A stretch of DNA of 41,816 nt, taken from the IMG/VR virus record IMGVR_UViG_2636416136_000011; one strand, written 5' to 3'. The notes beneath the pieces are model-generated. The model did not search any database and had not been told where the DNA came from. It saw only the letters and a list, made by a program, of their open reading frames with translations. The DNA is from a virus. Lineage: Duplodnaviria; Heunggongvirae; Uroviricota; Caudoviricetes. Shown here piece by piece: positions 354 to 24,530 of the stretch; position 1 is the first letter of the stretch; each line of letters begins with the position of its first letter. The position numbers and the translations under genes are program-made.

Positions 354-908
354 TCATTTATCTCCGACCGGAAACCTCTTATACAAAGTCGATATGCCAA
401 CATCATAGATGATCGCCACCTTCTGGCGAGGAACTCCTGATGCAATTAATCGTCCGGCCTGTGCCCATTGTTCTGGTGTAAGTTTGGGACGTCGTCCACC
501 AATTCGTCCCTGTGCGCGAGCAGCTTCCAGGCCAGCTTTTGTTCGTTCAACAATCAGTTCTCGTTCCATTTCAGCCAGGGCACCCATCACATGAAAGAAA
601 AAACGCCCCATCGGTGTGCTGGTATCAATAGCATCCGTCAAGCTGCGAAAATTAACGCCACGTTCGCGCAACTCCTCAACCAGAATGACCAGATGCCGCA
701 TACTACGCCCCAGCCGATCCAGCTTCCAGACAACCAGAGTGTCACCTGCCGATAATGTCCTGAGCAGTTTTTTCAGTCCCGGCCTTTCGGACTTTGTACC
801 GCTTATTTTGTCTTCAAAAATCAGCTCGCATCCTGCACAGTTCAGCGCATTACGTTGTAGATCTGTGTTCTGGTCATTTGTTGACACACGTACATAGCCA
901 ATAAGCAT
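354..908 (-). CDS. Serine-recombinase DNA invertase (Gin/Pin/Hin/Cin family)
   Basis: N-terminus MLIGYVRVSTNDQ with catalytic Ser, VVWKLDRLGRS and GRIGGRRPKL motifs and a C-terminal HTH; start taken at the internal Met (908) rather than the upstream in-frame Met at 944. Confidence 0.9.
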   Translation of the reverse strand: MLIGYVRVSTNDQNTDLQRNALNCAGCELIFEDKISGTKSERPGLKKLLRTLSAGDTLVVWKLDRLGRSMRHLVILVEELRERGVNFRSLTDAIDTSTPMGRFFFHVMGALAEMERELIVERTKAGLEAARAQGRIGGRRPKLTPEQWAQAGRLIASGVPRQKVAIIYDVGISTLYKRFPVGDK

Positions 909-934
909 GGTAGATCTCCCTGACAAAAGCAGGA

Positions 935-1327
935 ATGATGCCATTTGCTCGTTATTTCTGCATTTTCATAAACGTTGGTTTGGGAGAGGCGGCAAAAAGG
1001 AATGTGGGGACAGGGACGAATCAGATACCTGATATGGGTAGTTTTATGCTTTCTGCTTCAGTTCCTGGATATCAAAAATTGCCATCCGGTTTAATTATTC
1101 AATGGGGGCCAATTGATGTTCCGCTGACGTCTCAGGACACAGTAACCTATTTTCCGATTGCATTTCCGAACAGATGTCTGCGGGTATTTGCGACTCAGGA
1201 TTACACTCCCGGCAGTGCAAATGTTGGCTATATAGCTTGTGCCGGTTATAACCAGGACCCGGTGAAATTTATTTCCAGAGCAGGCGTACCCGGTATCGGT
1301 GCTTCATTTTTCGCATTAGGGTGTTAA
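935..1327 (+). CDS. Silent alternative tail-fibre C-terminal (receptor-binding) segment, expressed only after inversion
   Basis: Plus-strand ORF reading outward from the crossover site, with no start context of its own; the encoded GLGE at the site matches GLGEG at the crossover in the expressed fibre. Confidence 0.55.
963..988. repeat. hix/gix-like invertase crossover site (invertase-proximal), TTTTCATAAACGTTGGTTTGGGAGAG
   Basis: Its reverse complement CTCTCCCAAACCAACGTTTATGAAAA matches the site at 2803..2828 in inverted orientation, including a 13-bp identical run; internal AAACC/GGTTT dyad as in hix sites. Confidence 0.7.
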
Positions 1328-1353
1328 TTTCTTTTAACTTTATGGAGTGAAAA

Positions 1354-1794
1354 ATGAATTACATATATTCCGCGACTACAAACTCTTTCTATCCCTTGGA
1401 GATGAAAGAGGATTACACGCAAGCTGACTCATGGCCAGATGATGCTGTTGAAGTTGATGAGCAAGTGTATATTGAGTTTTCCGGATTACCGCCGGAAGGA
1501 AAAATCCGTATCGCTGGAGAAAATGGTTTTCCTGCATGGTCTGAAATTCCACCACCAACGCATGAGGAACAGATTGCTGCAGCCGAACTGGAAAAGCAGC
1601 AATTGATTAATCAGGCCAACGATTATATGAACAGTAAACAATGGCCTGGTAAAGCGGCTATTGGTCGTCTGAAAGGTGAGGAACTGGCGCAATATAATTT
1701 GTGGCTGGATTACCTGGACGCACTGGAAATGGTCGATACTTCCAGTGCGCCAGATATTGAATGGCCTACGCCTCCGTCAGTTCAGGCCAGATGA
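1354..1794 (+). CDS. Tail fibre assembly protein (Tfa/U'-like) paired with the silent fibre tip
   Basis: About 146 aa, directly downstream of the alternative fibre tip and converging on the other Tfa gene (29-bp overlap), as in Mu U/U'. Confidence 0.65.
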   Translation: MNYIYSATTNSFYPLEMKEDYTQADSWPDDAVEVDEQVYIEFSGLPPEGKIRIAGENGFPAWSEIPPPTHEEQIAAAELEKQQLINQANDYMNSKQWPGKAAIGRLKGEELAQYNLWLDYLDALEMVDTSSAPDIEWPTPPSVQAR

Positions 1795-2359
1795 CATCCG
1801 GCGCGGTGCTGGTATCTGTTGCCGTCACCGCGTCAATGTAATCCAGCACAGCGTTAAGCCGGGTTGTTTCTGCCTGCGTCAGTTTCCGCCCGGCCTGTAA
1901 TTTCAGCTGAATCAGACTAATGGAAGCCATTGCTGCATCAATCAGCGACTGGCGCTGTGCTTCTGCCGCGCCTACTGCGGCGCTATGCTGTGCCTCGGTA
2001 TCCGTCACCCATTTCTCACCATCCCATTTATCGTATGGCGTTAACGGTGAAAGCGTGACATAACCGTCTTTGATGGCACCGATATAATCCACTGTAACAG
2101 CTGCACCATTTTCTGTTGAGTAAACAGTCTCATTGCGATGGTCTTCTTCATGGCTCCATCCCTTACCCGTAAATACTGCCACTTTTCCCGGAATGTTTTC
2201 GCCCGGGTCAATACCAGTGGAACAGGCGGGCATACTTACGCCAGTATTAATATATTCATCAGACCAGCCCGTATACTCAGTTGTTTCAGCATCATAATAA
2301 AAACAACGCATATCGCCCGGCACTGTAGCCAGCCCATTTTCATCAAAAACAGGTTTCAT
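1766..2359 (-). CDS. Tail fibre assembly protein (Tfa/U-like) paired with the expressed fibre
   Basis: 197 aa, immediately downstream of the tail fibre gene with start/stop overlap; position and size typical of a fibre chaperone. Confidence 0.65.
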   Translation of the reverse strand: MKPVFDENGLATVPGDMRCFYYDAETTEYTGWSDEYINTGVSMPACSTGIDPGENIPGKVAVFTGKGWSHEEDHRNETVYSTENGAAVTVDYIGAIKDGYVTLSPLTPYDKWDGEKWVTDTEAQHSAAVGAAEAQRQSLIDAAMASISLIQLKLQAGRKLTQAETTRLNAVLDYIDAVTATDTSTAPDVIWPELTEA

Positions 2360-3171
2360 TATTTAGCCCTCACCAGAAAGTTAAATGCAATATTTCGCGG
2401 TCTGACAGCAACAAAATTCACACCATCACCCACAGAGTTACTGGTGAAATTAAATCGTGAAAATCCTGGCTGATTTCCGGCGATGCCATCATGAAAGTCA
2501 ATTGCGTGTCCCGCACCTCCGCCTATATTCCCGGCAAACTGAGAAAAGTTTGTAGCTTCCTGCCAGCTTAATAATTCGCGACCACCATCTGCACCTCGCC
2601 CGTCATCCCAGATACGAATGAAATCACCGCGGGCTTCAGGTAATACCAGCGAAGGAAACACTTTCGCCAGCACAGGGTAATCAGTGGCAGAAAATTTCGC
2701 CCCGTTGAACTTCAAAAACACCATACCGGACCAGCTGTCGATGACAGAATTTGGCATTGCGGCGGACGGCCAGAAGAACGGAACGCCAATAGCTGGAGCA
2801 CCTTCTCCCAAACCAAGGTTTTCGAGAGCCGTTTTCACCGTGCCATCCGATTTGATATCGCCAAACGGATTCTTGCGGCTCAGGTATTCAACAGCAAACC
2901 CCGATCCCAGCAATTCAACAAAACCGGGCAGATCACCATTATCAAGCACATCCCGTTGCGTTTTGTCACTTACAAACTGGGCCAGAGCTGCAGCAATAAA
3001 GCTGGCCTGCCGAATAACCTTATTGACTTGCGCACTGGATGCTTTCCCTGCTGTAAATCCGGATAAAAGCGCAGGCAACGCTTCCCATTCCTCCTGCGAC
3101 ATAACATTGGCATTTTTACCCGTTGCGAATGCTTTAAAGTCATTTTTTGCCATCAGAGTAATACTCCCCAT
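2359..3171 (-). CDS. Tail fibre protein (constant N-terminus plus invertible C-terminal receptor-binding part)
   Basis: C-terminal collar-like motif [29 protein letters not shown]; a hix-like site lies inside the gene. Confidence 0.75.
2803..2828. repeat. hix/gix-like invertase crossover site (inside the tail fibre gene), TTCTCCCAAACCAAGGTTTTCGAGAG
   Basis: 20 of 26 positions match hixL as I recall it (TTCTTGAAAACCAAGGTTTTTGATAA); inverted copy at 963..988; central AA dinucleotide at 2815-2816. Confidence 0.7.
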
Positions 3172-3833
3172 GCCCCTACATCAAAACCACTGATGAATTC
3201 GTTATCCATATCAAAACCAAAAAATTTTGAACCTTCCGATGGGGTTTCCACCGAAGGTGTTTCAATGCCACCCGCCCACACCCCGGCGGCTTTTACTGTG
3301 AGATATCCCTGTTTAATTGCAGCAATTAACTCACGCGATACATCTGAAATATCAGTATCAGGAAAGACCCAGACCGATATCGTCATGTCCTGGTTATCGA
3401 CTATCTGCATTCGCAGCCCGGATCCTGCTGTTGCCGCGTCAAGAATTACCGGAAGCGAATCATTCCGTCCGTCCCAGTTATTAATCGCAATCTTCGCTTT
3501 AAGGATGACACGATAAGTTTCATCGCTGAGGTACATGTATCCGGAATCAGGATCGTATGGCCCCTGCCATACACCCTGATCATATCCAAGCCCGTCGGTA
3601 TCCCAGCTGAAATAGACACCTGAGATAGGCTGGCTGACAACACGGCTACGTCCGATCCACAATCCAAGAATGTCAAGTTGCACACCAACCGCGGAGTCAA
3701 TATCAAATGCAGTAATCAACCCTCTGGTGGCCGCCGCAACATCAATAAGCGGCCGGGTCATCAGATCAACATGCGCAAGAAATTTAGGTTTGGTGGCGTG
3801 GTAGTTCGTGATTAGTTCGGTGTATTTGCTCAT
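3153..3833 (-). CDS. Tail/baseplate protein (gpI/gp48-like position)
   Basis: 226 aa between the baseplate J-like gene and the tail fibre; overlapping coupled starts. Confidence 0.4.
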
Positions 3834-5029
3834 GACTCCACCGTTATAACGATATTTTCCGGGGTACAGGACGCAGATTCGTTGTATCTGATATCAATGT
3901 TTGATGACGACAAAGCCCCCGGGGATTTCCCAATCGTCAGTTCCTGAATATCGTAATAGCGTGCATTCCCGCCACTCACCACGCCAAGATTCGCCGGTGA
4001 GTAAATGCGACTTAAAAGGACCGAATCACCAATCATCAGACTATTGATATAGTCGGAAATAGCCTGCTGGATCTGCTGCCCTATCTGTGAGGTATAACCC
4101 GTAAAAACTTTTAATTTAATCCGGGCATAAACAGGCACATCACTGGAACGCGAGAATTTGATTACATGGGGATTGCCGTATTTATCCGGAACCGTAACGG
4201 ATGTTGTACCGTGAGTGGCTGTCCCCTGGCCTTTATTTCCTCTGATAGCCTGAGCAATATCCGTCACATCACCGCCATCCACAATTACAGCAACAGAGTG
4301 TGGCGGTAACCCGTTACCGTCCTCTGAACCAGTATCGTTTTCATAGAGTTTGTGGCGGGTTACACCGGTAACATTAGAAACAGCACCATCCAGTGCTTCA
4401 AATGGGGTTATTGATGGCAACGCAACACTTTGCGACTGACGGATACGTAACTCCGCATCAGTTTCTGCCGGAGTGCCTACAGTAGCTGCAGCAGGATTGG
4501 TTACCGAAACCCAGCCACGGGTTGGCGTATTAATTTCAGTGATAGTTCCAGCCAGCGCCGCCACTGCACCACTGACGGAACATGTTGCGGTCGCCATCAC
4601 TGTACCATCCACGCCGACCACCACTGAAGCAGGCAAACGCCATATCACATTATTACCATCTTTCACGCTGCCATTAATGATGGTTGTTCCGGCAGTTCCT
4701 GTAAGAAGCAAATCAACCGTAGAGTTCGTCGCGCCTTTACGTGAAATACCATTTATTTTCACGTTACTGGTCAGTGCAGCCCCATAGCCGGTTGCCGGTG
4801 AAAAACAGTTGTAGACAGTTATCGCAGTATTATTGGCATCATGAATCGCCAGCGCCATCAGAGCCACCATCTGGCCGTCTTTGCTGTCCGGTTCGAGGTA
4901 GGCATCACTGCCATAAATCTGCTGAAAATAGCTAATCAGGGTGCTGAGTATCGTCTGATAATCAGGCGCACTGATCCCCTCCGCGGTTACCTTTGCAGAT
5001 AAACCGAGAGAATCAAGGTTCAGAGCCAT
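3830..5029 (-). CDS. Baseplate J-like protein
   Basis: 399 aa; position after the gpW-like gene; threonine/glycine/valine-rich β-type sequence typical of baseplate wedge proteins. Confidence 0.55.
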   Translation of the reverse strand: MALNLDSLGLSAKVTAEGISAPDYQTILSTLISYFQQIYGSDAYLEPDSKDGQMVALMALAIHDANNTAITVYNCFSPATGYGAALTSNVKINGISRKGATNSTVDLLLTGTAGTTIINGSVKDGNNVIWRLPASVVVGVDGTVMATATCSVSGAVAALAGTITEINTPTRGWVSVTNPAAATVGTPAETDAELRIRQSQSVALPSITPFEALDGAVSNVTGVTRHKLYENDTGSEDGNGLPPHSVAVIVDGGDVTDIAQAIRGNKGQGTATHGTTSVTVPDKYGNPHVIKFSRSSDVPVYARIKLKVFTGYTSQIGQQIQQAISDYINSLMIGDSVLLSRIYSPANLGVVSGGNARYYDIQELTIGKSPGALSSSNIDIRYNESASCTPENIVITVES

Positions 5030-5382
5030 TACGCCTCCGATGTAACAGTCGTTATTCCATAAAGAGTGTCGATTTCAGCGGAAAACATGACACGTCGGGT
5101 CGTGGTATCCAGCGTCGTATTGAAAGAGAGGATTGATTTAACGCCCTGCGTTTCGAGGATGCGCTTACGGATCGCCAGGTTGTAGGTTTCCGGCTTCTGC
5201 TTACCGAGTACGGACTGGATCCACGGAGTCCCCTCGGTGGTGTCGAGAAACCATTGCCCATACCACAATTCGAATCGCGTTTTTACCGCCTGCGCCACGG
5301 CCTCCGGTGAGTTAATCAGCCAGGTGTCATCACCGCTGCCAAAGGTGTAATCGCCATCGGCGTCTTCACGTCTGTATCGCAT
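5029..5382 (-). CDS. Baseplate wedge protein (gpW/gp25-like)
   Basis: 117 aa, translationally coupled between the spike and J-like genes. Confidence 0.45.
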   Translation of the reverse strand: MRYRREDADGDYTFGSGDDTWLINSPEAVAQAVKTRFELWYGQWFLDTTEGTPWIQSVLGKQKPETYNLAIRKRILETQGVKSILSFNTTLDTTTRRVMFSAEIDTLYGITTVTSEA

Positions 5383-6134
5383 CAGTTTACCCCGTCGGTA
5401 CTGCTTTCACCGCGCTGAACACCACCATGAGTGTGCGTATCATCGATTGGCTTGCCGTTAGCCTTCACGCCCCCCAAAAACTCAACAGCACCAGTGATTT
5501 TTGAAGCCACACCAGAAACCACAGACCCCACCATGCCCCCCATCCAGGTTAACAGGCCATGAATGGTTACTTTCTCAGAAAAATCAGCCAGGGGGGCAAC
5601 CACATCAAGACCACCTGGAGCGACAATTTTAATTTTCCTGGTATCAGGATTAAGCTCAAAATAGGTGCTGCCGTCATCACTACGCAACTGTGTGGCACTG
5701 GTATTAATACCGCTAATCTTCCTTGCCTGCGACTGGGGACCGACAATACAAAACGCATCCGATAAATCATGCATTCTGTCATCGACCGACTCCTGTATCC
5801 CGCCACTCTGCCACCAGAAATCAATACAACGATCGGCAAAAATCACCAAACATTCATCACCGGCTTTAACTGGGAACGTTAGCGTACATCCTCCGCCGCG
5901 CGGGAATACCACTGGCACATCCACCAGCAATGGGTAATTTTTGGTAATGCGGTTGCCGTCATTATCCTTTTCAACCGAACGGATAGCAGGCTGCACAACT
6001 GCCGTCACCGCATCAGGATCGAATGACTGAATAATGCCAGGCAAGGCGACACGGATCTGGTTCTTTGTTGTTTCCCGTTCAGATTTGAATGTTTCGGCAA
6101 GGTCGCCGCTGCGGGTCTGGTCAGATACTGCCAT
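5382..6134 (-). CDS. Baseplate spike / assembly protein V-like
   Basis: 250 aa, first gene of the V-W-J-I block; glycine-rich C-terminal extension. Confidence 0.55.
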   Translation of the reverse strand: MAVSDQTRSGDLAETFKSERETTKNQIRVALPGIIQSFDPDAVTAVVQPAIRSVEKDNDGNRITKNYPLLVDVPVVFPRGGGCTLTFPVKAGDECLVIFADRCIDFWWQSGGIQESVDDRMHDLSDAFCIVGPQSQARKISGINTSATQLRSDDGSTYFELNPDTRKIKIVAPGGLDVVAPLADFSEKVTIHGLLTWMGGMVGSVVSGVASKITGAVEFLGGVKANGKPIDDTHTHGGVQRGESSTDGVN

Positions 6135-6152: not shown

Positions 6153-6175
6153 CAAAAAACCCGCCGAAGCGGGTT
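6153..6175 (-). terminator. Rho-independent terminator closing the two-gene moron
   Basis: Minus strand reads AAACCCGC-TTCG-GCGGGTTT followed by TTTTTGC, just 3' of the 6194 stop and before the baseplate spike start. Confidence 0.65.
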
Positions 6176-6193
6176 TGATAACGTTAATTTTAT

Positions 6194-6589
6194 TCATGAA
6201 ACTCTAGCAGACTTTAGCTGTTCCCAGCGCTCAAAATAGAGTTCAGCAGCCTCGATTGCATCCTGTCCCATCTCTTTCGAAACAGTCACATTCGTCAGAT
6301 CATAGTCAGCTTCATTTCTAGCATCCCGCCACTGGCGAAGTACGAAAGCTAGGGATTTCAGTGTATTTGTCGGGTATGGCTCTGATTTGCACTCTGAGGG
6401 CGTTGACATATAACCCACAGTATTTTTGTGATGCTCATGGGTAAAATGCGGTATGGCAGTAAGTGAGCTAATAGACTCATGTAACATACTGTAATACGCC
6501 CTTGAGATAGCGCTTCGAAATCCACTCTCAATATTTTCAGACAGACATAATCGAGCGGTATCGAGAATCTGATTGCTAGTTACCGACAT
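6194..6589 (-). CDS. HEPN-like domain protein (candidate toxin/defence effector), moron gene 2
   Basis: 131 aa; motifs RAYYSMLHE (R-x6-H) and RDARNEADYD (R-x-x-A-D-Y) resemble classical HEPN signatures; A+T-rich; 14-bp overlap with the upstream gene. Confidence 0.5.
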   Translation of the reverse strand: MSVTSNQILDTARLCLSENIESGFRSAISRAYYSMLHESISSLTAIPHFTHEHHKNTVGYMSTPSECKSEPYPTNTLKSLAFVLRQWRDARNEADYDLTNVTVSKEMGQDAIEAAELYFERWEQLKSARVS

Positions 6590-7349
6590 GGTAGCTCACC
6601 CCCGTATGCAACTGACGCGGAGAGGTAAATCTAGCTAACAGGGAACAATCATCCAGTTTAGATTCAGCGCAGACTCTATCAGCCAAGTCGAAGTTCATTT
6701 TGGCAATAGTTTTAGGCTCAAGATTTTTAATATCAACAACATAGCAACCGCTTCCACTAAGCTGAACGAAACCTGTCGTAGCCTTGTATTCACTTAGCAA
6801 GCCCCAGATTATGGATGCTAAGGTCTGGAACTGTTCCTTCGAGCACTGTGTGGCGCTATAGAAATTATCCATTTCTGCAAGGAGTTCTTCTTTGTGCTTC
6901 ATAGCATTACTCCTGCCTTCTGATTCAGAAAGAAGCTTAATGTGCTCTTCCATATAAAATTTTAACTGTTCACGCTCGCCGCAACGGTACGCCCAACTGT
7001 ATGCGTTGTGACTAAAGAGTTTTGTCCGATACTTCTTTGCCAGCGGGACATAGACATCCTTGAGTTCATTATAGCTAAATGTATTAATTAAAATGTGATG
7101 ATAGTGCATTGCCAACGTTACATCGTTTACTTCTAGGCTTATCCTGAGATAACGTAACGCGCTTTCAATCTTTCCGGTTATTGCATCCAGATAAGATAGT
7201 GCAATGTTGGTAGCAGGCGTTGGAGAGACAGAAAGTTCCTCTCGAATTTTCTTTTCAGTGAAGGGATCTAAACTTTCCCTATCCAATAGAAGCGCATTGA
7301 ATTGTTCAATATATTTTTGCGCTTTTTCTAATGGGATGCCTGCCGCCAT
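6576..7349 (-). CDS. Hypothetical protein, moron gene 1 (partner of the HEPN-like protein)
   Basis: 257 aa, no motif recognised; A+T-rich; separated from the upstream gene by a 95-bp gap. Confidence 0.5.
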   Translation of the reverse strand: MAAGIPLEKAQKYIEQFNALLLDRESLDPFTEKKIREELSVSPTPATNIALSYLDAITGKIESALRYLRISLEVNDVTLAMHYHHILINTFSYNELKDVYVPLAKKYRTKLFSHNAYSWAYRCGEREQLKFYMEEHIKLLSESEGRSNAMKHKEELLAEMDNFYSATQCSKEQFQTLASIIWGLLSEYKATTGFVQLSGSGCYVVDIKNLEPKTIAKMNFDLADRVCAESKLDDCSLLARFTSPRQLHTGVSYHVGN

Positions 7350-7444
7350 GGATTATTTCTCTTACTAAAGGGATTGTGATTGTGAACTTTGAACAATATC
7401 TCGTCAACCTTAAAGCGCTCATCTCGGAAGATTGACATCAAACT

Positions 7445-7777
7445 TTAGCGTAACGCCTTTTTACACGGGAAAGATCCAATGATTTTCGGCGCGTCCATGC
7501 TGTTCTGCAGCAGCTGGACGTTCAGGAAAGCTTTTCCGTTACGTTTCACAAACTCAAAGCCGTAATTGTTACCATCACGGGAAGGCATCAGGCCCATGTC
7601 CATTTTCATGTTTGAATAGTCACCATCTTTTCCCAGAAATTTTATCTTCTGTGATGTGACAGTTTCACCGTTAATAACAGTCATTCCGTCACCGGTCATC
7701 GTGTAGTTGCCGCACTGAATTGCAGCCATCGCCGGAGCAGTAACCATCATAACTAACGCCAAACATAACCGTTTCAT
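7445..7777 (-). CDS. Small secreted/periplasmic protein with N-terminal signal peptide (cargo gene)
   Basis: MKRLCLALVMMVTAPAMAA signal-like N-terminus with two Cys in the mature part; start overlaps the stop of the upstream baseplate gene (TAATG). Confidence 0.55.
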   Translation of the reverse strand: MKRLCLALVMMVTAPAMAAIQCGNYTMTGDGMTVINGETVTSQKIKFLGKDGDYSNMKMDMGLMPSRDGNNYGFEFVKRNGKAFLNVQLLQNSMDAPKIIGSFPCKKALR

Positions 7778-8841
7778 TAAAGCCCTCTTTCCCTCGCTGA
7801 TGAGGAAACAAGATCCGCCGCGCCACGCGCTTCACACATCATATCCATGTACCACGCCTGGCCCCTTGTGTCGCCAGTGTACATAATCCCGCGCACAATA
7901 TAAACGCCATCCGTTGCGATGCTGGCAGGCTGCGATGTGGTGCCGCTGAGCGTGATATTTCCGTCCGTGTTCTGGTCGGTGATCTGACCACCAGCCATCG
8001 CAATATCGTTGTTCGACAACGCGGTACGATAGACGGAAGCCTGATCCAGCTGAATGAGCCCGTTAACCCGGATGTTCGGATTAATAAGCGCGCGGACGTT
8101 TACGCCGTTACCGATAGTCTGCTGCGGCATTCCAATAAGCCCGGTAGCGCTGTTGAGCACAATCGCTTCGTGAACATATTCGTTATTCGCCACCATCTGG
8201 CGCTGACCGTCCACGAATTGCCATGTTGCGCCACATTGTCCGGCTACGTTATCCATTAGATGCCGCGTCATGCCAAAGAGTACCCGCCCCCGAGGGAATA
8301 CAGTAGCAGGCATTTCAGGCGTCAGGCCTTCGGTCGCGCCTTTGGCTTCGAAGTCTTTCATCAGCGCACGGTTCACATCAGCGACCGTGTAACCGGCAGC
8401 CAGCGTCTGTGAGGTTATACTGGTAGCAAAAGCCAGATCAGTATCTGCTGCCTGAATCAGGACGTAGGTATCAACCGGACTGTCTTTTCCTGTGACCGAG
8501 TAGCGAATTTCACCGCTGAAAATCAGTCCGTAGTTGCGGCCATCTCTCTGGCCCACGTCCGCCGCGTCAACTTCCCGCACGGTCCCTACGTCGCTTGCTG
8601 ACACCTCCGGCGCGATACCGTCGTAACCGGCAATCAGACGCACTTTCGAAAACTCCTGCCCGGTAATTCGGTTCACAGTATCTGCCGAGAGGTTATAAAT
8701 TTTGATAGTCCCTACCCGGGACGCGCTGCTGATGTTGAACCAGTCGATCGTAAAGGTGACTTTGAAATCACTTAGCTCAATTCCCTGACCGTTCCCGTCC
8801 ACAAGCTGCAGCTCGAAATGTCTCATCCAGTTCTGTGACAT
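7777..8841 (-). CDS. Baseplate hub / tail protein (gpD/gp44-like position)
   Basis: 354 aa, third gene after the tape measure gene. Confidence 0.45.
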   Translation of the reverse strand: MSQNWMRHFELQLVDGNGQGIELSDFKVTFTIDWFNISSASRVGTIKIYNLSADTVNRITGQEFSKVRLIAGYDGIAPEVSASDVGTVREVDAADVGQRDGRNYGLIFSGEIRYSVTGKDSPVDTYVLIQAADTDLAFATSITSQTLAAGYTVADVNRALMKDFEAKGATEGLTPEMPATVFPRGRVLFGMTRHLMDNVAGQCGATWQFVDGQRQMVANNEYVHEAIVLNSATGLIGMPQQTIGNGVNVRALINPNIRVNGLIQLDQASVYRTALSNNDIAMAGGQITDQNTDGNITLSGTTSQPASIATDGVYIVRGIMYTGDTRGQAWYMDMMCEARGAADLVSSSARERGL

Positions 8842-8843
8842 GC

Positions 8844-9146
8844 TTACTCCGTTGATACCAGTAAATGGCTGCGACCGCCCAGGTCAGTTTTTGTGGGGTA
8901 ATCCTGTGTGTTGTCATCACAGACCACCACCAGCTTAAAACCAAGCCCCATACAGGCGTACTGCGCCAGCAGCTCAGCACCAGTGACGAGAGGAATACCG
9001 GAGATTACCGGCTCCCCTCTGTCGTTCTGCAGGTCCATAATCCAGTACAGATCGCGCCATATGATGCTAATCCGCCAGGTGACACCACCCAGGACGATGC
9101 TGAACTGCTGGTTGTCCGCTGTCAGCGGAATTTCCTGAATTGTCAT
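8844..9146 (-). CDS. Tail protein
   Basis: 100 aa, coupled between tail genes downstream of the tape measure gene. Confidence 0.4.
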   Translation of the reverse strand: MTIQEIPLTADNQQFSIVLGGVTWRISIIWRDLYWIMDLQNDRGEPVISGIPLVTGAELLAQYACMGLGFKLVVVCDDNTQDYPTKTDLGGRSHLLVSTE

Positions 9147-9733
9147 TAGCCGCCCCCCAGTAATGACGCCACGTTACCCGTGATGCTTTTCAGCAGTGAA
9201 GTATCTGGAGGCTTTGTGGTTTTGTTGCCGCTGTTCTGTACCGCCGACGTGCTGGCCCCTTCCTTCATGTTGGTTTTATCCGCGACGGTAATCTGCTGTG
9301 TCCGGGAGATAATGACCTCCCTCAGGGTGAGGACAGCGGACAGGACGTTTTCGGTTGTCTTGTCCGTCGTCACTTCCAGCGCCCGGATCAACATGTTGCT
9401 GTACAGCCGTTTACCGGTTACCACATCGAAGGGGATACGGCTTTCCTGCAGACCCAGTAGCTCCTGATACGTCTGCTGAGGACTCAGGCCGAGCAGGCTG
9501 GTAGCCGTCAGGTTACTGGCAAAATCCAGCAATGCGCCGCCACCGGCGAAACCAACCTCCATCACCACTTCTGACGGTTTTTTATAGGCATGATCAGCGA
9601 CAGCGGCCCCGACCTCTACCGGATGCTCTGTTATTTCAAGCATATCTGTATGCTTCTCTGAAATAACAACACTGGGAACAATCATTCCTATTTTTCTGCT
9701 CTGCTGATGAAAAAGTGTAGAGAGAATATCCAC
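9146..9733 (-). CDS. Tail protein
   Basis: 195 aa, immediately downstream of the tape measure gene, coupled. Confidence 0.4.
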   Translation of the reverse strand: MDILSTLFHQQSRKIGMIVPSVVISEKHTDMLEITEHPVEVGAAVADHAYKKPSEVVMEVGFAGGGALLDFASNLTATSLLGLSPQQTYQELLGLQESRIPFDVVTGKRLYSNMLIRALEVTTDKTTENVLSAVLTLREVIISRTQQITVADKTNMKEGASTSAVQNSGNKTTKPPDTSLLKSITGNVASLLGGG

Positions 9734-11718
9734 TAACCCACCCTCACCTGATTACTTCGCATGACCTGAGCATTTGCAGACTGTTGCCGACGTGCAACCT
9801 CATTACCGACAGCGTGCGGATCTCCGCCACCGTAAATGTGGTAGGTATTTTGCTGGTTAACCTCTGTCACTTTGCCACTAATTCCCGCCACGGCAGCCTT
9901 ATTAATCAGCTCTCGAGAATAGATATTTCTTCCATTCTCATGCTGGATAATGCTGCTCATCAATGCTGACATGGTTTGCGGATCACTCATATTCAGGGCA
10001 GCCCGGGGATCCACTCCCAGTCGTTGCGATACAGCCCTGATATACGCTGTTGTGTTGTTATTATCAGACGCAGGTGCCCAGGTAGAGATAATTTTCTCCA
10101 CACTGTTTATTCCCCGTCCGGCGTACAGCATTAACTGACGAGCAAGAGCCCGTAATCCATCAAAGGCAGTTTCAAATCTGGCAAATCGCCCGCCCGGGCG
10201 TTCAAGAGAAGCCCCTGCCTGACCAGCAAAATTAAGGTTTCCCGGATTGTTATTCCGTTCTCCTCGTTTCGTAGCCTGTGCATATTGTTCCGGCTCAGCA
10301 CCTGGAATATCTGACTGAATATTTGCGCCTTTTACGGTATGAGGATTACGACCAAAATCGGTATCAATGCCAAGCCAGCGCAATGAATCTCCAATATTTT
10401 GTTTCGTGTAATCCCAGGATGACTTCGCACTGGCACCAATATTTTCGCGATCAGAGTACAAATACGCAGCATAAGCCATCCAGCCTTTTAACCACGGCGG
10501 GACCGGCAAACCTGATATTTTCCCGAAAGCCCCCAGAACCCTGGATACCCAGACACCCGCGATGAATGTACCAAGGATTTCCAGTGCATTTTGCCAGCCG
10601 CCAACACCATCTTTTAGTTCCAGAAGGTGATCACGAAGCCAGGTGATCGCATCCTTCGCTTTATCTATTGCCGGTTGCCATTTTTCCCAGTCGATAAGAC
10701 TGTTACCGCCTTCTTTCCATGTTTTGTAGTCTTCCCACAAGAGACCGAGAGCCACGATCAGACCGGTAATCAGCCCTATAGGTGACATCCAGAAAGTAGA
10801 GTTAAGTATCCGCATGGCGACAACCAGACCGCCGATAACCTCTATCAGGGTTTTCGTTTCGGCATCCAGTTTCCCCCACCACTCGATGATATCTCCGACA
10901 CCATCGACTATCCGAAATGCTACCCGCCCGACTATCTCACCCAGCCAGAGGATCCCCTTTATGACCTTTGTGATGGTGACTTCAATTTTGGGAAAATTTT
11001 CAATTATCTTTTTGCGCAGGTTATCAATCTGCCCCGCCAGTCCGTCCGCAAGATTCGATCCGATTTTGTCCCGCGCCATCCTGGCCATTTCACCGAGCGA
11101 TTTCAGCGAGGTCATAAACCGGTTTGACGATAAGGCAGCCTGATCGGCATTAAATCCGATCGCTTTCACCATTTCTGAATACTGAGCGCTGAACTGCCCC
11201 ACTCCGCGACGCATAGCCATCAGGGTATTTTCGTCAATGCCCAGCATCTGCGCATACTGGTTAGCCCGGTAATACGGCATGCTGCTGAGTTTCTGTCCAA
11301 CGCCCGTAAAGATAGCAGCCATGTCACGCATGTTACCGCTGGCATCACGGGTCTGTACGCCCAGGCGATTCAGAAAGCCTTCTGCTCCGGGATTGTTACG
11401 AATAAACCGGGAGAGGCTTTCCAGAGAAGATCGCGCAGCGTCCACACTGCCGCCAACCTGCGAAACCGCATAGCCAATAGACTGAATTCCCTGGACCGTC
11501 GCGCCGGTGCGCTGTGACGCCCAGTAAAGATTATCCAGGCCGGAGGCGATCTTAGCCGTGAAGGCCACCACGGACAGCGCAGCCCCTTCAACAGCCAGCC
11601 CCATTTTGATGACATTTGCAGTTGTACCGGCGAGGACAGAACCGAACTTTTTCGCTCCTGCATCATCCACACTGAAGCCAAGCGAGACGAGGAAATCTTT
11701 AATAGTTTCAGCGTTCAT
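9733..11718 (-). CDS. Tail tape measure protein
   Basis: About 660 aa with hydrophobic central segments; start set at MNAETIKDF (ATG 11718) with upstream GGAGAGAGG. Confidence 0.7.
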   Translation of the reverse strand: MNAETIKDFLVSLGFSVDDAGAKKFGSVLAGTTANVIKMGLAVEGAALSVVAFTAKIASGLDNLYWASQRTGATVQGIQSIGYAVSQVGGSVDAARSSLESLSRFIRNNPGAEGFLNRLGVQTRDASGNMRDMAAIFTGVGQKLSSMPYYRANQYAQMLGIDENTLMAMRRGVGQFSAQYSEMVKAIGFNADQAALSSNRFMTSLKSLGEMARMARDKIGSNLADGLAGQIDNLRKKIIENFPKIEVTITKVIKGILWLGEIVGRVAFRIVDGVGDIIEWWGKLDAETKTLIEVIGGLVVAMRILNSTFWMSPIGLITGLIVALGLLWEDYKTWKEGGNSLIDWEKWQPAIDKAKDAITWLRDHLLELKDGVGGWQNALEILGTFIAGVWVSRVLGAFGKISGLPVPPWLKGWMAYAAYLYSDRENIGASAKSSWDYTKQNIGDSLRWLGIDTDFGRNPHTVKGANIQSDIPGAEPEQYAQATKRGERNNNPGNLNFAGQAGASLERPGGRFARFETAFDGLRALARQLMLYAGRGINSVEKIISTWAPASDNNNTTAYIRAVSQRLGVDPRAALNMSDPQTMSALMSSIIQHENGRNIYSRELINKAAVAGISGKVTEVNQQNTYHIYGGGDPHAVGNEVARRQQSANAQVMRSNQVRVG

Positions 11719-11953
11719 TATCCTCTCTCCATTTCTCAATGCGTCGCTGGTTATCCGCTTTTACCGCCAGATGGTCATTCAAGAGAGCAATGTCATACAA
11801 ATCGACAGAGCCATCTTTAAGTGCTGTATAAGGAATTAACCCGGCGTCAACCGGATTGAGAAGGTAGGACAGCCCGTCCGGCAGGCTGTTAAACGTCAGC
11901 CCTGTTGCAGGCTCTGCGTCGTGCTGGTAAGGGGTGTAGGCAAAAAATTTCCC
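11708..11953 (-). other. -1 programmed frameshift extension of the tail assembly chaperone (G/GT-type), slippery heptamer G GGA AAT at 11947..11953
   Basis: The -1 frame is open with no Met from the slippery site across the whole 156-bp gap and stops at TGA 11708-11710, overlapping the tape measure start. Confidence 0.5.
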
Positions 11954-24088: not shown

Positions 24089-24430
24089 TTACTCCTTAGA
24101 GCCACCAAACTTGTTACCGATTACTCGCATTGCAGCCCCACGAATAGCATCGACACCGATCAGCCCAACACCACCACCAATGGCAACAGAAAGCGATTTA
24201 GGCCATCCAACATACTCAAGAGCGGATGCAAAGGTCAGCGTCAGAGCACCACAGAGCAAAATCTCAAGCGTTTTTCGTTTCCAGCCGCCGCCACCGCCAA
24301 AATAGGCAATGCGCAAACCAGCCATAACAATTGACATAACCACTGCGCCCAACGGCGTATCTCCACGCCACCAACTTTGTAAGAGTTCCAGTAAGTCAGG
24401 CCAGGAATGAGGAGCATTGTGCATTTTCAT
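24089..24430 (-). CDS. Holin with dual-start MKM motif (lambda S-like holin/antiholin arrangement)
   Basis: Start set at MKMHNAPHS with GGAGGTG seven nt upstream; hydrophobic TM segments; immediately upstream of the endolysin. Confidence 0.6.
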   Translation of the reverse strand: MKMHNAPHSWPDLLELLQSWWRGDTPLGAVVMSIVMAGLRIAYFGGGGGWKRKTLEILLCGALTLTFASALEYVGWPKSLSVAIGGGVGLIGVDAIRGAAMRVIGNKFGGSKE

Positions 24431-24530
24431 ACTTCCCACCTCCGCCATTACGGGGTGTTGTTGAAAGGCGGGCCCTGCGTATACGCCCGTAGGATTGGGT
24501 TATGAGCCGTCCTTCGGTGGGCCCTGAATA

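What the first reader, a model, noticed from the sequence alone, without database searches (positions are those of the whole stretch)
7445..7777. Signal-peptide protein gene translationally coupled into the baseplate operon
A 110-aa protein with a clear secretion signal and two cysteines in the mature part is inserted between the hub-like gene and the HEPN moron, with its start overlapping the upstream stop (TAATG). A secreted or periplasmic protein in a tail operon is not structural, so it is probably a lysogenic-conversion or superinfection-exclusion factor. It may work together with the adjacent two-gene moron as one accessory island.
Basis: partly seen in the sequence, partly recalled or inferred. 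Interest (0 to 1): 0.5.

Follow-up and report, generated by a model that had tools for sequence, protein, structure and literature searches.

The report
Exported small protein gene behind baseplate hub
A real, well-conserved prophage gene makes a small protein that is exported to the bacterial periplasm instead of joining the virus particle; it most likely interferes with phage entry, but its function is untested.

Summary
The ORF is real and exactly as described: 7445-7777 on the minus strand, 110 aa, with its ATG overlapping the hub gene's TAA (TAATG). It has a classic Sec signal peptide (MKR / hydrophobic core / APAMA|A) and two conserved cysteines in a 92-aa, 10-kDa mature protein. It belongs to an uncharacterised family (phrog_3443; PGAP name "STY1065/STY2022 family phage-derived protein"). 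The AlphaFold2 model is a small beta-barrel with no specific structural relative.

It is not a baseplate part. The homologous, cryo-EM-solved Pam3 baseplate has no gene here, nor does Providencia phage PSTCR3. In a few near-identical prophages, unrelated exported proteins or a lipoprotein sit at the same coupled position.

It is also not a sporadic moron. It follows the hub in 76 of 80 close relatives and across Enterobacterales. It has no terminator of its own. It assorts independently of the neighbouring two-gene cassette, the tape measure, the spike and the fibre.

Six discrete N-terminal alleles occur on near-identical hubs, each under purifying selection.

Best reading: a periplasmic binding protein that blocks phage entry. 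This is inferred, not shown.

The parts
7445..7777 (-). Gene for the 110-aa exported protein (STY1065/STY2022 family, phrog_3443), allele class A
   Evidence: ORF; phrog_3443, E=2e-52; PGAP name on the 100%-matching gene; 410 homologues; pN/pS about 0.1
7724..7777 (-). Codons 1-18: predicted Sec (SPase I) signal peptide MKRLCLALVMMVTAPAMA, with cleavage after Ala18
   Evidence: Read from the sequence. Homologues keep the same n/h/c architecture with small residues at -3/-1, although the sequence is not conserved. There is no lipobox.
7448..7723 (-). Codons 19-110: the mature 92-aa protein. Predicted beta-barrel of about seven to eight strands. Cys4 and Cys87 sit on the first and last strands. 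The N-terminal half is variable and the C-terminal half nearly invariant.
7775..7779 (-). TAATG: the hub stop codon and the start codon of this gene overlap by one base (translational coupling)
   Evidence: sequence. Other alleles start within 3-10 nt of the hub stop. Hafnia phage yong1 has a GTGA overlap.
7783..7787 (-). Shine-Dalgarno GAGGG, 5 nt upstream of the ATG, inside the hub coding sequence
7777..8841 (-). Baseplate hub gene (E217 gp41 / Pam3 gp19 type, phrog_196), the upstream gene to which the finding is coupled
7876..7904 (-). Candidate weak sigma-70 promoter embedded in the hub 3' end, TTTATA-17 nt-TACACT (8 of 12 matches), about 95 nt upstream of the ATG. Hypothetical.
   Evidence: It falls below the scan threshold. 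The same aligned position gives 8-9/12 matches in 15 of 21 relatives that have an accessory gene after the hub, and none in the two outgroups PSTCR3 and Magia. The third position of Thr322 is T in 18 of 19 sequences, and the span ranks 3rd lowest of 186 windows for third-position diversity. Synonymous diversity is the lowest in the hub gene. It could instead be a recombination anchor.
6157..7407 (-). Adjacent but separate unit: promoter-like site (7407..7379), 257-aa gene (6576-7349), 131-aa gene (6194-6589) and a strong terminator (6176..6157). This is the exchangeable cargo slot, not part of the finding's gene.
   Evidence: promoter and terminator; independent assortment; 18 cargo families

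Best explanation
The gene encodes a Sec-exported, soluble, probably disulfide-bonded periplasmic beta-barrel protein of about 10 kDa. It is a long-standing resident accessory gene of the tail module of SEN34/Brunovirus-like temperate myophages of Enterobacterales.

Its start overlaps the hub stop codon, so it is made whenever the late tail operon is translated. It may also be expressed at a low level from a weak promoter embedded in the hub 3' end.

It does not enter the virion. The most likely function is envelope-level interference with phage entry. In this model the barrel binds, in the periplasm, either a component of an incoming tail tip or a host envelope factor needed for genome delivery. 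The near-invariant C-terminal half would form the scaffold. The N-terminal half, which exists as at least six discrete alleles, would set specificity.

Shown: the gene is real, is under purifying selection, has signal-peptide architecture, is not needed for the homologous baseplate architecture, sits at a conserved position, is allelically diverse, and assorts independently of its neighbours. Inferred: the periplasmic location, the disulfide, binding as the mode of action, and exclusion as the phenotype.
For: Exported: n/h/c signal peptide with AxA, conserved in architecture but not in sequence across alleles at 35-100% identity. Two conserved Cys and a hydrophilic mature part.

Not structural: every Pam3 baseplate role has its own gene in the window (PMC9942802). 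In PSTCR3 and Pam3 the hub is followed directly by the spike.

The position selects for export, not for this fold. In near-identical prophages the same coupled position holds a 241-aa lipoprotein (L074, L094) or an unrelated ~150-aa signal-peptide protein (L080, L065, Hafnia yong1). In EKP1 and Burkholderia Magia the slot holds other small signal-peptide proteins.

Functional and diversified: pN/pS is 0.06-0.11 within classes. Six allele classes are 42-66% identical in the N-terminal half and 77-100% in the C-terminal half, on hubs 96-100% identical.

Precedent for entry blockers encoded among tail genes: HK97 gp15 (PMC3594210), T5 Llp (PMC9586334), T4 Imm binding the tape measure (bioRxiv 10.64898/2026.03.06.709160).

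Intact copies survive in degraded prophages with a truncated hub or none (L175/L215, L176/L198).
Against: No functional data exist and no family with a known function matched (Pfam, NCBIfam, PADLOC, PDB sequences, Foldseek PDB, BFVD).

The allele class shows no association with tape-measure type, spike type or tail-fibre type. A self-matched exclusion factor of the Llp or gp15 kind might be expected to show one.

There is no clear independent promoter or terminator, so expression in lysogens is unproven. The embedded promoter is weak and partly dictated by a conserved amino-acid motif.

Near-universal retention in the clade is unusual for exclusion or conversion genes and could point to a role in the lytic cycle.

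The signal peptide was judged by rules, not by SignalP.
Confidence: 0.4

Rival explanations
1. It is a host-fitness (lysogenic conversion) factor unrelated to phage entry. A periplasmic inhibitor or immunity barrel would protect the lysogen against an external enzyme or toxin, such as lysozyme, a peptidoglycan-degrading type VI effector or a bacteriocin, as PliC/MliC or Tsi/Tai proteins do.
Confidence: 0.2
2. It is a lytic-cycle helper acting in the periplasm of the producing cell. It would be made late with the tail proteins and would mask a receptor or envelope component, so that progeny are not lost on debris or lysing cells. Alternatively it would modulate envelope breakdown.
For: Translational coupling to the hub inside a ~22-kb late operon with no terminator of its own. 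Near-universal retention in the clade. T5 Llp is proposed to protect progeny in this way (PMC9586334).
Against: It is not a lipoprotein and shows no co-variation with the highly variable fibres (41 fibre clusters in 48 loci). The lysis cassette (holin 24089-24448) is about 16 kb away. Phages of the same architecture lack any gene here.
Confidence: 0.2
3. It is a virion or baseplate component, or a tail-assembly factor, and the hydrophobic N-terminus is not a cleaved signal.
For: It sits between hub and spike, is coupled to the hub, and is conserved in the clade.
Against: It has a canonical cleavable signal peptide whose sequence drifts freely while its architecture is kept. It has a conserved Cys pair. 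Unrelated exported proteins and a lipoprotein replace it at the same position. It has no counterpart in the solved Pam3 baseplate and is absent in PSTCR3. There are six divergent alleles on identical hubs and spikes.
Confidence: 0.03
4. It works together with the adjacent 257-aa and 131-aa genes as one three-gene accessory island.
For: The genes are adjacent, all have lower GC than the structural genes, and the last three residues (ALR) travel with the pair.
Against: The pair is found with alleles A, B and C. Most loci have the exported protein without the pair, and some have no cargo at all. The pair has its own promoter-like site and terminator. The pair's proteins have no signal peptides.
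Confidence: 0.03

Closest known systems
STY1065/STY2022 family phage-derived protein (NCBI PGAP name) = PHROG phrog_3443
   Same: The window protein matches phrog_3443 at E=2e-52 over its full length. The same gene in E. coli RIVM_C029670 (a 100% tblastn match) carries the PGAP family name.
   Different: Both are catalogue entries with no assigned function. I found no paper on the family.
HK97 gp15 (the moron-encoded superinfection exclusion protein in a tail operon)
   Same: A small accessory gene embedded among tail genes. An envelope-located product proposed to stop the incoming tail from delivering DNA (PMC3594210).
   Different: gp15 is an inner-membrane protein on an independent promoter/terminator unit, and its exclusion depends on the tail region of the excluded phage. 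This gene encodes a soluble exported barrel, is translationally coupled, has no terminator, and shows no co-variation with the tape measure. There is no sequence or fold relation.
T5 Llp and T1/phi80 Cor (receptor-blocking lipoproteins encoded next to tail-tip genes)
   Same: A small exported protein encoded beside tail-tip genes and kept throughout a phage lineage (PMC9586334).
   Different: Llp and Cor are lipoproteins that act on FhuA. This protein has no lipobox and its alleles do not track the receptor-binding fibre.
P1 Sim and T4 Imm (exclusion acting after adsorption)
   Same: They act on the periplasmic or membrane step of genome delivery. T4 Imm is reported to bind the tape measure protein (bioRxiv 10.64898/2026.03.06.709160). 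P1 Sim is a signal-peptide-processed protein (from my own knowledge, not checked here).
   Different: Sizes and folds are unrelated. Imm is membrane-embedded. Both are early or prophage-expressed genes, not genes coupled to a structural gene.
PliC/MliC periplasmic lysozyme inhibitors

Membership tests
Sec-dependent (SPase I) exported protein | N-terminal n-region with positive charge, a hydrophobic h-region of 7-15 residues, and a c-region with small residues at -3 and -1 | tested here: met
   K2 R3 / LCLALVMMV / TAPAMA|A. All allele classes and distant members show the same architecture. This was judged by rules; SignalP was not available.
Bacterial lipoprotein (as Cor, Llp, Bor) | Lipobox [LVI][ASTVI][GAS]C at the end of the signal peptide | tested here: not met
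   The conserved Cys is preceded by A-I-Q or similar. The lipobox regex hits only 3 of 184 family sequences, two of them lipoprotein fusions.
Moron (as defined in PMC3594210) | [quoted passage not shown] | tested here: met
   45.3% GC against 54.4% (hub) and 50.5% (spike)
Moron (as defined in PMC3594210) | Own promoter and own terminator, i.e. an independent transcription unit | tested here: not met
   There is no terminator between this gene and the next, and no promoter at the scan threshold. Only a weak 8/12 embedded candidate exists. The adjacent 257/131-aa pair does have both.
Moron (as defined in PMC3594210) | Obvious addition: present in some and absent from closely related phages | tested here: not met
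   Present in 76 of 80 loci with a hub at least 96% identical and in nearly all enterobacterial relatives. Absent only from distant outgroups.
Baseplate / virion structural protein | A counterpart in solved baseplates of the same architecture | tested here: not met
   In Pam3 the hub gp19 is followed directly by the spike gp20, and its baseplate is complete with six components (PMC9942802).
Baseplate / virion structural protein | Detected in purified virions | not testable with these tools
   The SEN34 paper contains no proteomics terms.
PliC/MliC lysozyme inhibitors (Pfam PF09864) | Match to the family profile and its signature motifs | tested here: not met
Superinfection exclusion protein | Expression reduces infection by a defined phage after or at adsorption | not testable with these tools
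   Needs plating, adsorption and injection assays.
Superinfection exclusion protein matched to its own tail (Llp / gp15 type) | Co-variation of the exclusion allele with the receptor-binding protein or tape measure | tested here: not met
   Alleles A, C, D, E and F all occur with the same tape-measure type. The same allele occurs with many fibre clusters, and fibre clusters f0, f2 and f3 are shared between alleles.
phrog_3443 / STY1065-STY2022 family | Full-length profile match | tested here: met
   E=2.3e-52, residues 3-107 against profile positions 6-112 of 115. PGAP name. NCBIfam release 20 itself returned no model.

The most novel reading that the evidence does not exclude
The position immediately behind the hub gene is a dedicated 'exported-protein slot'. 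Its usual occupant would be a polymorphic periplasmic exclusion determinant, and its six or more N-terminal alleles would define exclusion groups among otherwise near-identical prophages. This would resemble immunity specificities, but act in the periplasm on incoming contractile tails. The determinant would be expressed both with the late operon and from a promoter hidden inside the hub coding sequence.
Probability: 0.2. Interest if true: 0.65.

Novelty: new variant of a known kind. Interest (0 to 1): 0.4.

Why it matters
This tail module is common. The hub gene is found in 408 of 5426 complete E. coli genomes and in many Klebsiella, Salmonella, Yersinia and Photorhabdus prophages.

If the protein blocks phage entry, it would be a soluble periplasmic exclusion factor with a new fold. 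It would also come with a natural allele series for mapping specificity. That is relevant to prophage-mediated resistance in phage therapy against E. coli and Klebsiella.

The layout is also a clean, portable example of how accessory genes are exchanged inside a structural operon. A conserved hub is followed by an exported-protein slot with alleles and non-homologous replacements. Next comes a cargo slot holding 18 families, mostly cytoplasmic two-gene units, and then the spike.

If the protein turns out to be an ordinary conversion factor or to have no phenotype, the finding is routine.

Tried and rejected
Family and structure searches that gave nothing useful:
- Pfam, NCBIfam and PADLOC gave no hit for the protein.
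- A profile search of PDB sequences gave 0 hits at E<=10.
- Foldseek against PDB and against BFVD gave nothing below E=0.2.
- The afdb50 library was not available.

Literature:
- Searches for STY1065/STY2022 returned only astronomy papers.
- The SEN34 paper has no virion proteomics.
- A search on moron, baseplate and signal peptide found nothing on this family.

Co-variation tests, all negative:
- The allele class showed no association with the tape-measure N-terminal or C-terminal part, Dit, plug, spike, sheath initiator, wedge J or cargo.
- It showed no association with fibre clusters.

Other leads:
- Pfam and PHROG searches of the non-homologous proteins occupying the same slot, and of cargo genes, returned only 'unknown function'.
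- Two lipoprotein fusions carrying this domain had no Pfam domain.
- I considered a PliC/MliC-type inhibitor and rejected membership.
- I considered domestication in remnants, but only a few of 42 loci lack an intact hub, so this is weak.
- The embedded-promoter idea is kept only as a hypothesis. The motif is partly forced by the conserved VYIV...YTGDTRG peptide, and the low diversity could equally mark a recombination anchor.

Full report
**1. The observation**

The ORF is on the minus strand at 7445..7777 and encodes 110 aa. Its ATG (7777-7775) overlaps by one base the TAA (7779-7777) of the 354-aa gene at 7777..8841, giving TAATG. A GAGGG ribosome-binding site lies 5 nt upstream.

The N-terminus, MKRLCLALVMMVTAPAMA|AIQC, has the three regions of a Sec signal peptide, with Ala at -3 and -1. 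There is no lipobox and no twin-arginine motif. This was judged by rules, because no predictor was available. The mature part is 92 aa, 10.15 kDa, pI 9.2 and hydrophilic, with two cysteines close to its two ends. The description is therefore correct. The one unverified element is the 'HEPN' label of the neighbour, for which Pfam, NCBIfam and PADLOC gave nothing.

**2. Surroundings**

The minus strand carries a complete minimal-myophage tail module:
- tape measure, 9733-11739
- Dit-like tube initiator, 9146-9733
- Pam3-gp18-type plug, 8844-9146
- hub of the E217 gp41 / phrog_196 type, 7777-8841
- this gene
- a 257-aa gene (6576-7349) and a 131-aa gene (6194-6589)
- spike, 5382-6134
- sheath initiator, 5029-5382
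- baseplate J, 3830-5029
- second wedge protein, 3153-3833
- fibre, 2359-3171
- fibre chaperone, 1766-2359

The element is an E. coli prophage. The 3.6-kb region is 100% identical in strains BH100, Ecol_542 and F11. It is related to Salmonella phage SEN34 (Brunovirus), Klebsiella phages Mulock and RCIP0034, and Yersinia phage YP3.

**3. A real, constrained gene in a narrow family**

The protein matches phrog_3443 (unknown function, E=2e-52). PGAP names the same gene 'STY1065/STY2022 family phage-derived protein'. A 5.8-billion-protein search gave 410 relatives; those that carry names are from Enterobacterales and are called 'hypothetical' or 'secreted'. An exhaustive profile search of 1.84 billion cluster representatives gave only 65 clusters.

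All members, down to about 25-35% identity, keep four things: a signal peptide, a Cys a few residues after the predicted cleavage site, an INGxxxxSQK-like motif, and a Cys near the C-terminus. Within allele classes pN/pS is 0.06-0.11.

**4. Structure**

AlphaFold2 on a 45-sequence alignment gives an all-beta model with pLDDT 83.5 and pTM 0.72. DSSP marks seven long strands plus short bridges, which is consistent with a small up-and-down barrel. The two cysteines lie on the first and last strands. That they form a disulfide closing the barrel is my inference; I could not inspect the coordinates.

**5. It is not a baseplate component**

Pam3 has a homologous hub and plug, and its baseplate has been solved by cryo-EM. 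Its gene order runs tube initiator, plug, hub, spike, sheath initiator, two wedge proteins, fibre. Nothing lies between hub and spike, and the baseplate is complete with six components (PMC9942802). Every one of those roles has its own gene in the window. Providencia phage PSTCR3 (hub 38% identical) also goes directly from hub to spike. A cleavable signal peptide and a conserved Cys pair do not fit assembly in the cytoplasm.

**6. It is not a sporadic insertion either**

In all eight phage records inspected, the homologue is the first gene after the hub. Among 80 IMG/VR loci whose hub is at least 96% identical, 76 have it within a few bases of the hub stop.

In 42 species-representative genomes, it again follows the hub almost everywhere. 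These span Citrobacter, Raoultella, Pantoea, Yersinia, Photorhabdus, Serratia, Rahnella, Rouxiella and others. In several Pantoea, Serratia and Rahnella loci it is followed directly by the spike, with no cargo. A few degraded prophages keep an intact copy beside a truncated hub or no hub.

Measured against the published definition of a moron (PMC3594210), it meets only one criterion. That definition requires different GC, an own promoter and terminator, and an obvious addition relative to close relatives. Only the GC differs (45% against 54%).

**7. The position selects for export**

The four exceptions among the 80 loci carry something else at the same coupled position:
- L074 and L094 carry a 241-aa lipoprotein (MSRLAITTIVFSLFLTSC...).
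- L080 and L065 carry an unrelated ~150-aa protein with a signal peptide (MKKQVIVAITMLISTTSFA|EPGK...).

Hafnia phage yong1 (hub 77% identical) has the latter protein. Its annotated start is too far downstream: a GTG overlapping the hub stop restores a signal peptide. More distant relatives have other small signal-peptide proteins in the slot, namely EKP1 and, on the opposite strand, Burkholderia Magia. None of these has a known function. I take this non-homologous replacement by exported proteins as the strongest hint that the job is done in the envelope.

**8. Alleles and independent assortment**

On hubs 96-100% identical, the protein falls into six discrete classes, with these counts: A (the window) 25, B 10, C 26, D 5, E 8, F 2. 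Between classes, the N-terminal half of the mature protein is 42-66% identical and the C-terminal half 77-100%. In E. coli genomes the hub is at least 90% identical in 268 genomes, but this gene in only 77. Homology breaks near hub nt 1031 and resumes inside the gene.

Allele class shows no association with any neighbour tested:
- tape-measure type: the window's type occurs with alleles A, C, D, E and F
- spike type
- cargo
- tail fibre: 41 clusters in 48 loci, some shared between alleles

The identical 257/131-aa pair occurs with alleles A, B and C. The two or three residues after the conserved ...FPCKK track the cargo (ALR with this pair), so the cargo recombination joint lies in the 3' end of this gene. 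The cargo slot holds 18 families in 76 loci, mostly without signal peptides. It is dominated by a 131-aa-like protein paired with variable partners. In the window the pair has a promoter-like site (7407..7379) and a strong terminator (6176..6157). The 'one accessory island' idea is therefore not supported.

**9. Expression**

The gene sits in the middle of a late operon that runs from the holin (24089-24448) to the fibre genes, and it is translationally coupled to the hub. The standard scan finds no promoter for it.

I noticed that synonymous diversity in the hub is lowest about 60-160 nt upstream of the ATG. That stretch contains TTTATA-17-TACACT (8/12; window 7904..7876). The same aligned position scores 8-9/12 in 15 of 21 relatives that have an accessory gene after the hub, including hubs about 50% identical (ATTACA-17-TATACT). 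It scores nothing in the two outgroups tested, PSTCR3 and Magia. The base that would be the invariant T of the -10 element is a Thr third position, and it is T in 18 of 19 diverged sequences. The span ranks 3rd lowest of 186 windows for third-position diversity.

This is suggestive only. The motif is partly dictated by the conserved peptide VYIV...YTGDTRG, and a recombination anchor would look similar.

**10. Mechanism**

I commit to this reading: a soluble periplasmic binding protein that interferes with phage genome delivery, that is, superinfection exclusion in the broad sense. It would be made with the late proteins and possibly at low level in lysogens. I put this at about 0.4.

Arguments for:
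- the protein is exported
- the position selects for export
- the gene is linked to the entry machinery
- it shows allelic diversification over a conserved scaffold
- there are precedents among tail-operon genes: HK97 gp15, T5 Llp and T4 Imm

Arguments against:
- there is no co-variation with any tail component
- expression in lysogens is unproven
- the gene is retained unusually widely

Rivals:
- a host-protective periplasmic inhibitor, 0.2
- a lytic-cycle envelope helper, 0.2
- a structural role, 0.03
- one unit with the neighbouring pair, 0.03

**11. Novelty and score**

The family is catalogued but uncharacterised. The gene is an ordinary member of it and is 100% identical in several sequenced E. 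coli strains. New here are four things: the demonstration that it is a resident, exported, non-virion gene of this tail module; the allele structure; the replacement by unrelated exported proteins; and its separation from the cargo slot.

Under the best reading it is a new variant of a known kind, namely exported phage accessory or exclusion proteins. Interest is 0.4: a testable lead in a common prophage, but not a surprise to a specialist.

Noticed in passing
window 6157-7407 (-); loci L017-L096: The stretch between this gene and the spike is an exchangeable cargo slot. It holds 18 protein families in 76 loci and ranges from about 60 nt to 1.4 kb. A 131-aa-like small protein (conserved ...RNEADYD...) occurs in 36 loci, paired with at least two unrelated upstream partners. 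In the window the pair has a promoter-like site and a strong terminator, so it looks like a classic moron, possibly a two-gene defence or toxin-antitoxin unit. The HEPN assignment is unverified.
   Followed up: partly
L074/L094 5068-5793; L080 5068-5529; L065 4987-5532; L009 (Hafnia phage yong1) about 4569-5032: Unrelated exported proteins occupy the same hub-coupled position: a 241-aa lipoprotein and a ~150-aa signal-peptide family. The annotated start of yong1 gp67 appears too far downstream. A GTG overlapping the hub stop restores a signal peptide.
   Followed up: partly
window 354-2359: This looks like an invertible tail-fibre switch. It has a serine invertase (354-944, -; Resolvase + HTH_7), an alternative fibre C-terminal fragment (935-1327, +; Gp53-like_C) and a second fibre-assembly chaperone (1354-1794, +), which converges on the active chaperone (1766-2359, -).
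   Followed up: partly
window 7852-7941 (hub codons ~301-330): This stretch has the lowest synonymous diversity in the hub gene among 64 close variants, just upstream of the allele-variable segment. It is either an embedded promoter for the downstream accessory genes or a homogenised recombination anchor.
   Followed up: partly
loci L098-L174, fibre gene after the second wedge gene: Tail fibres are extremely mosaic: 41 clusters (85% identity) among 48 loci whose hubs are at least 96% identical. They share a constant N-terminus ([17 protein letters not shown]...) and have swapped C-terminal domains.
   Followed up: partly
window 9733-11739 and loci L017-L096: The C-terminal half of the tape measure falls into very different types (29-100% identity) on otherwise near-identical tail modules. 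PGAP annotates this region as a lytic transglycosylase / SLT domain in relatives.
   Followed up: no
P0135, P0157: In two clusters the family's domain is the C-terminal part of lipoproteins of about 270-290 aa. Their N-terminal ~190 aa have no Pfam match.
   Followed up: partly
L180 (Chryseobacterium sp. 18061 assembly); L010 (Elizabethkingia phage EKP1): Records labelled as Flavobacteriia carry this enterobacterial-type tail module (hub 92% and 48% identical). This suggests contamination or a wrong host label, at least for the Chryseobacterium assembly.
   Followed up: no
L001 (Escherichia phage vB_EcoM-683R1, ON470593.1): The record splits the hub and the spike into two CDS each, although tblastn aligns the hub end to end at 99%. 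Sequence errors or nonsense codons are likely in this partial genome.
   Followed up: no
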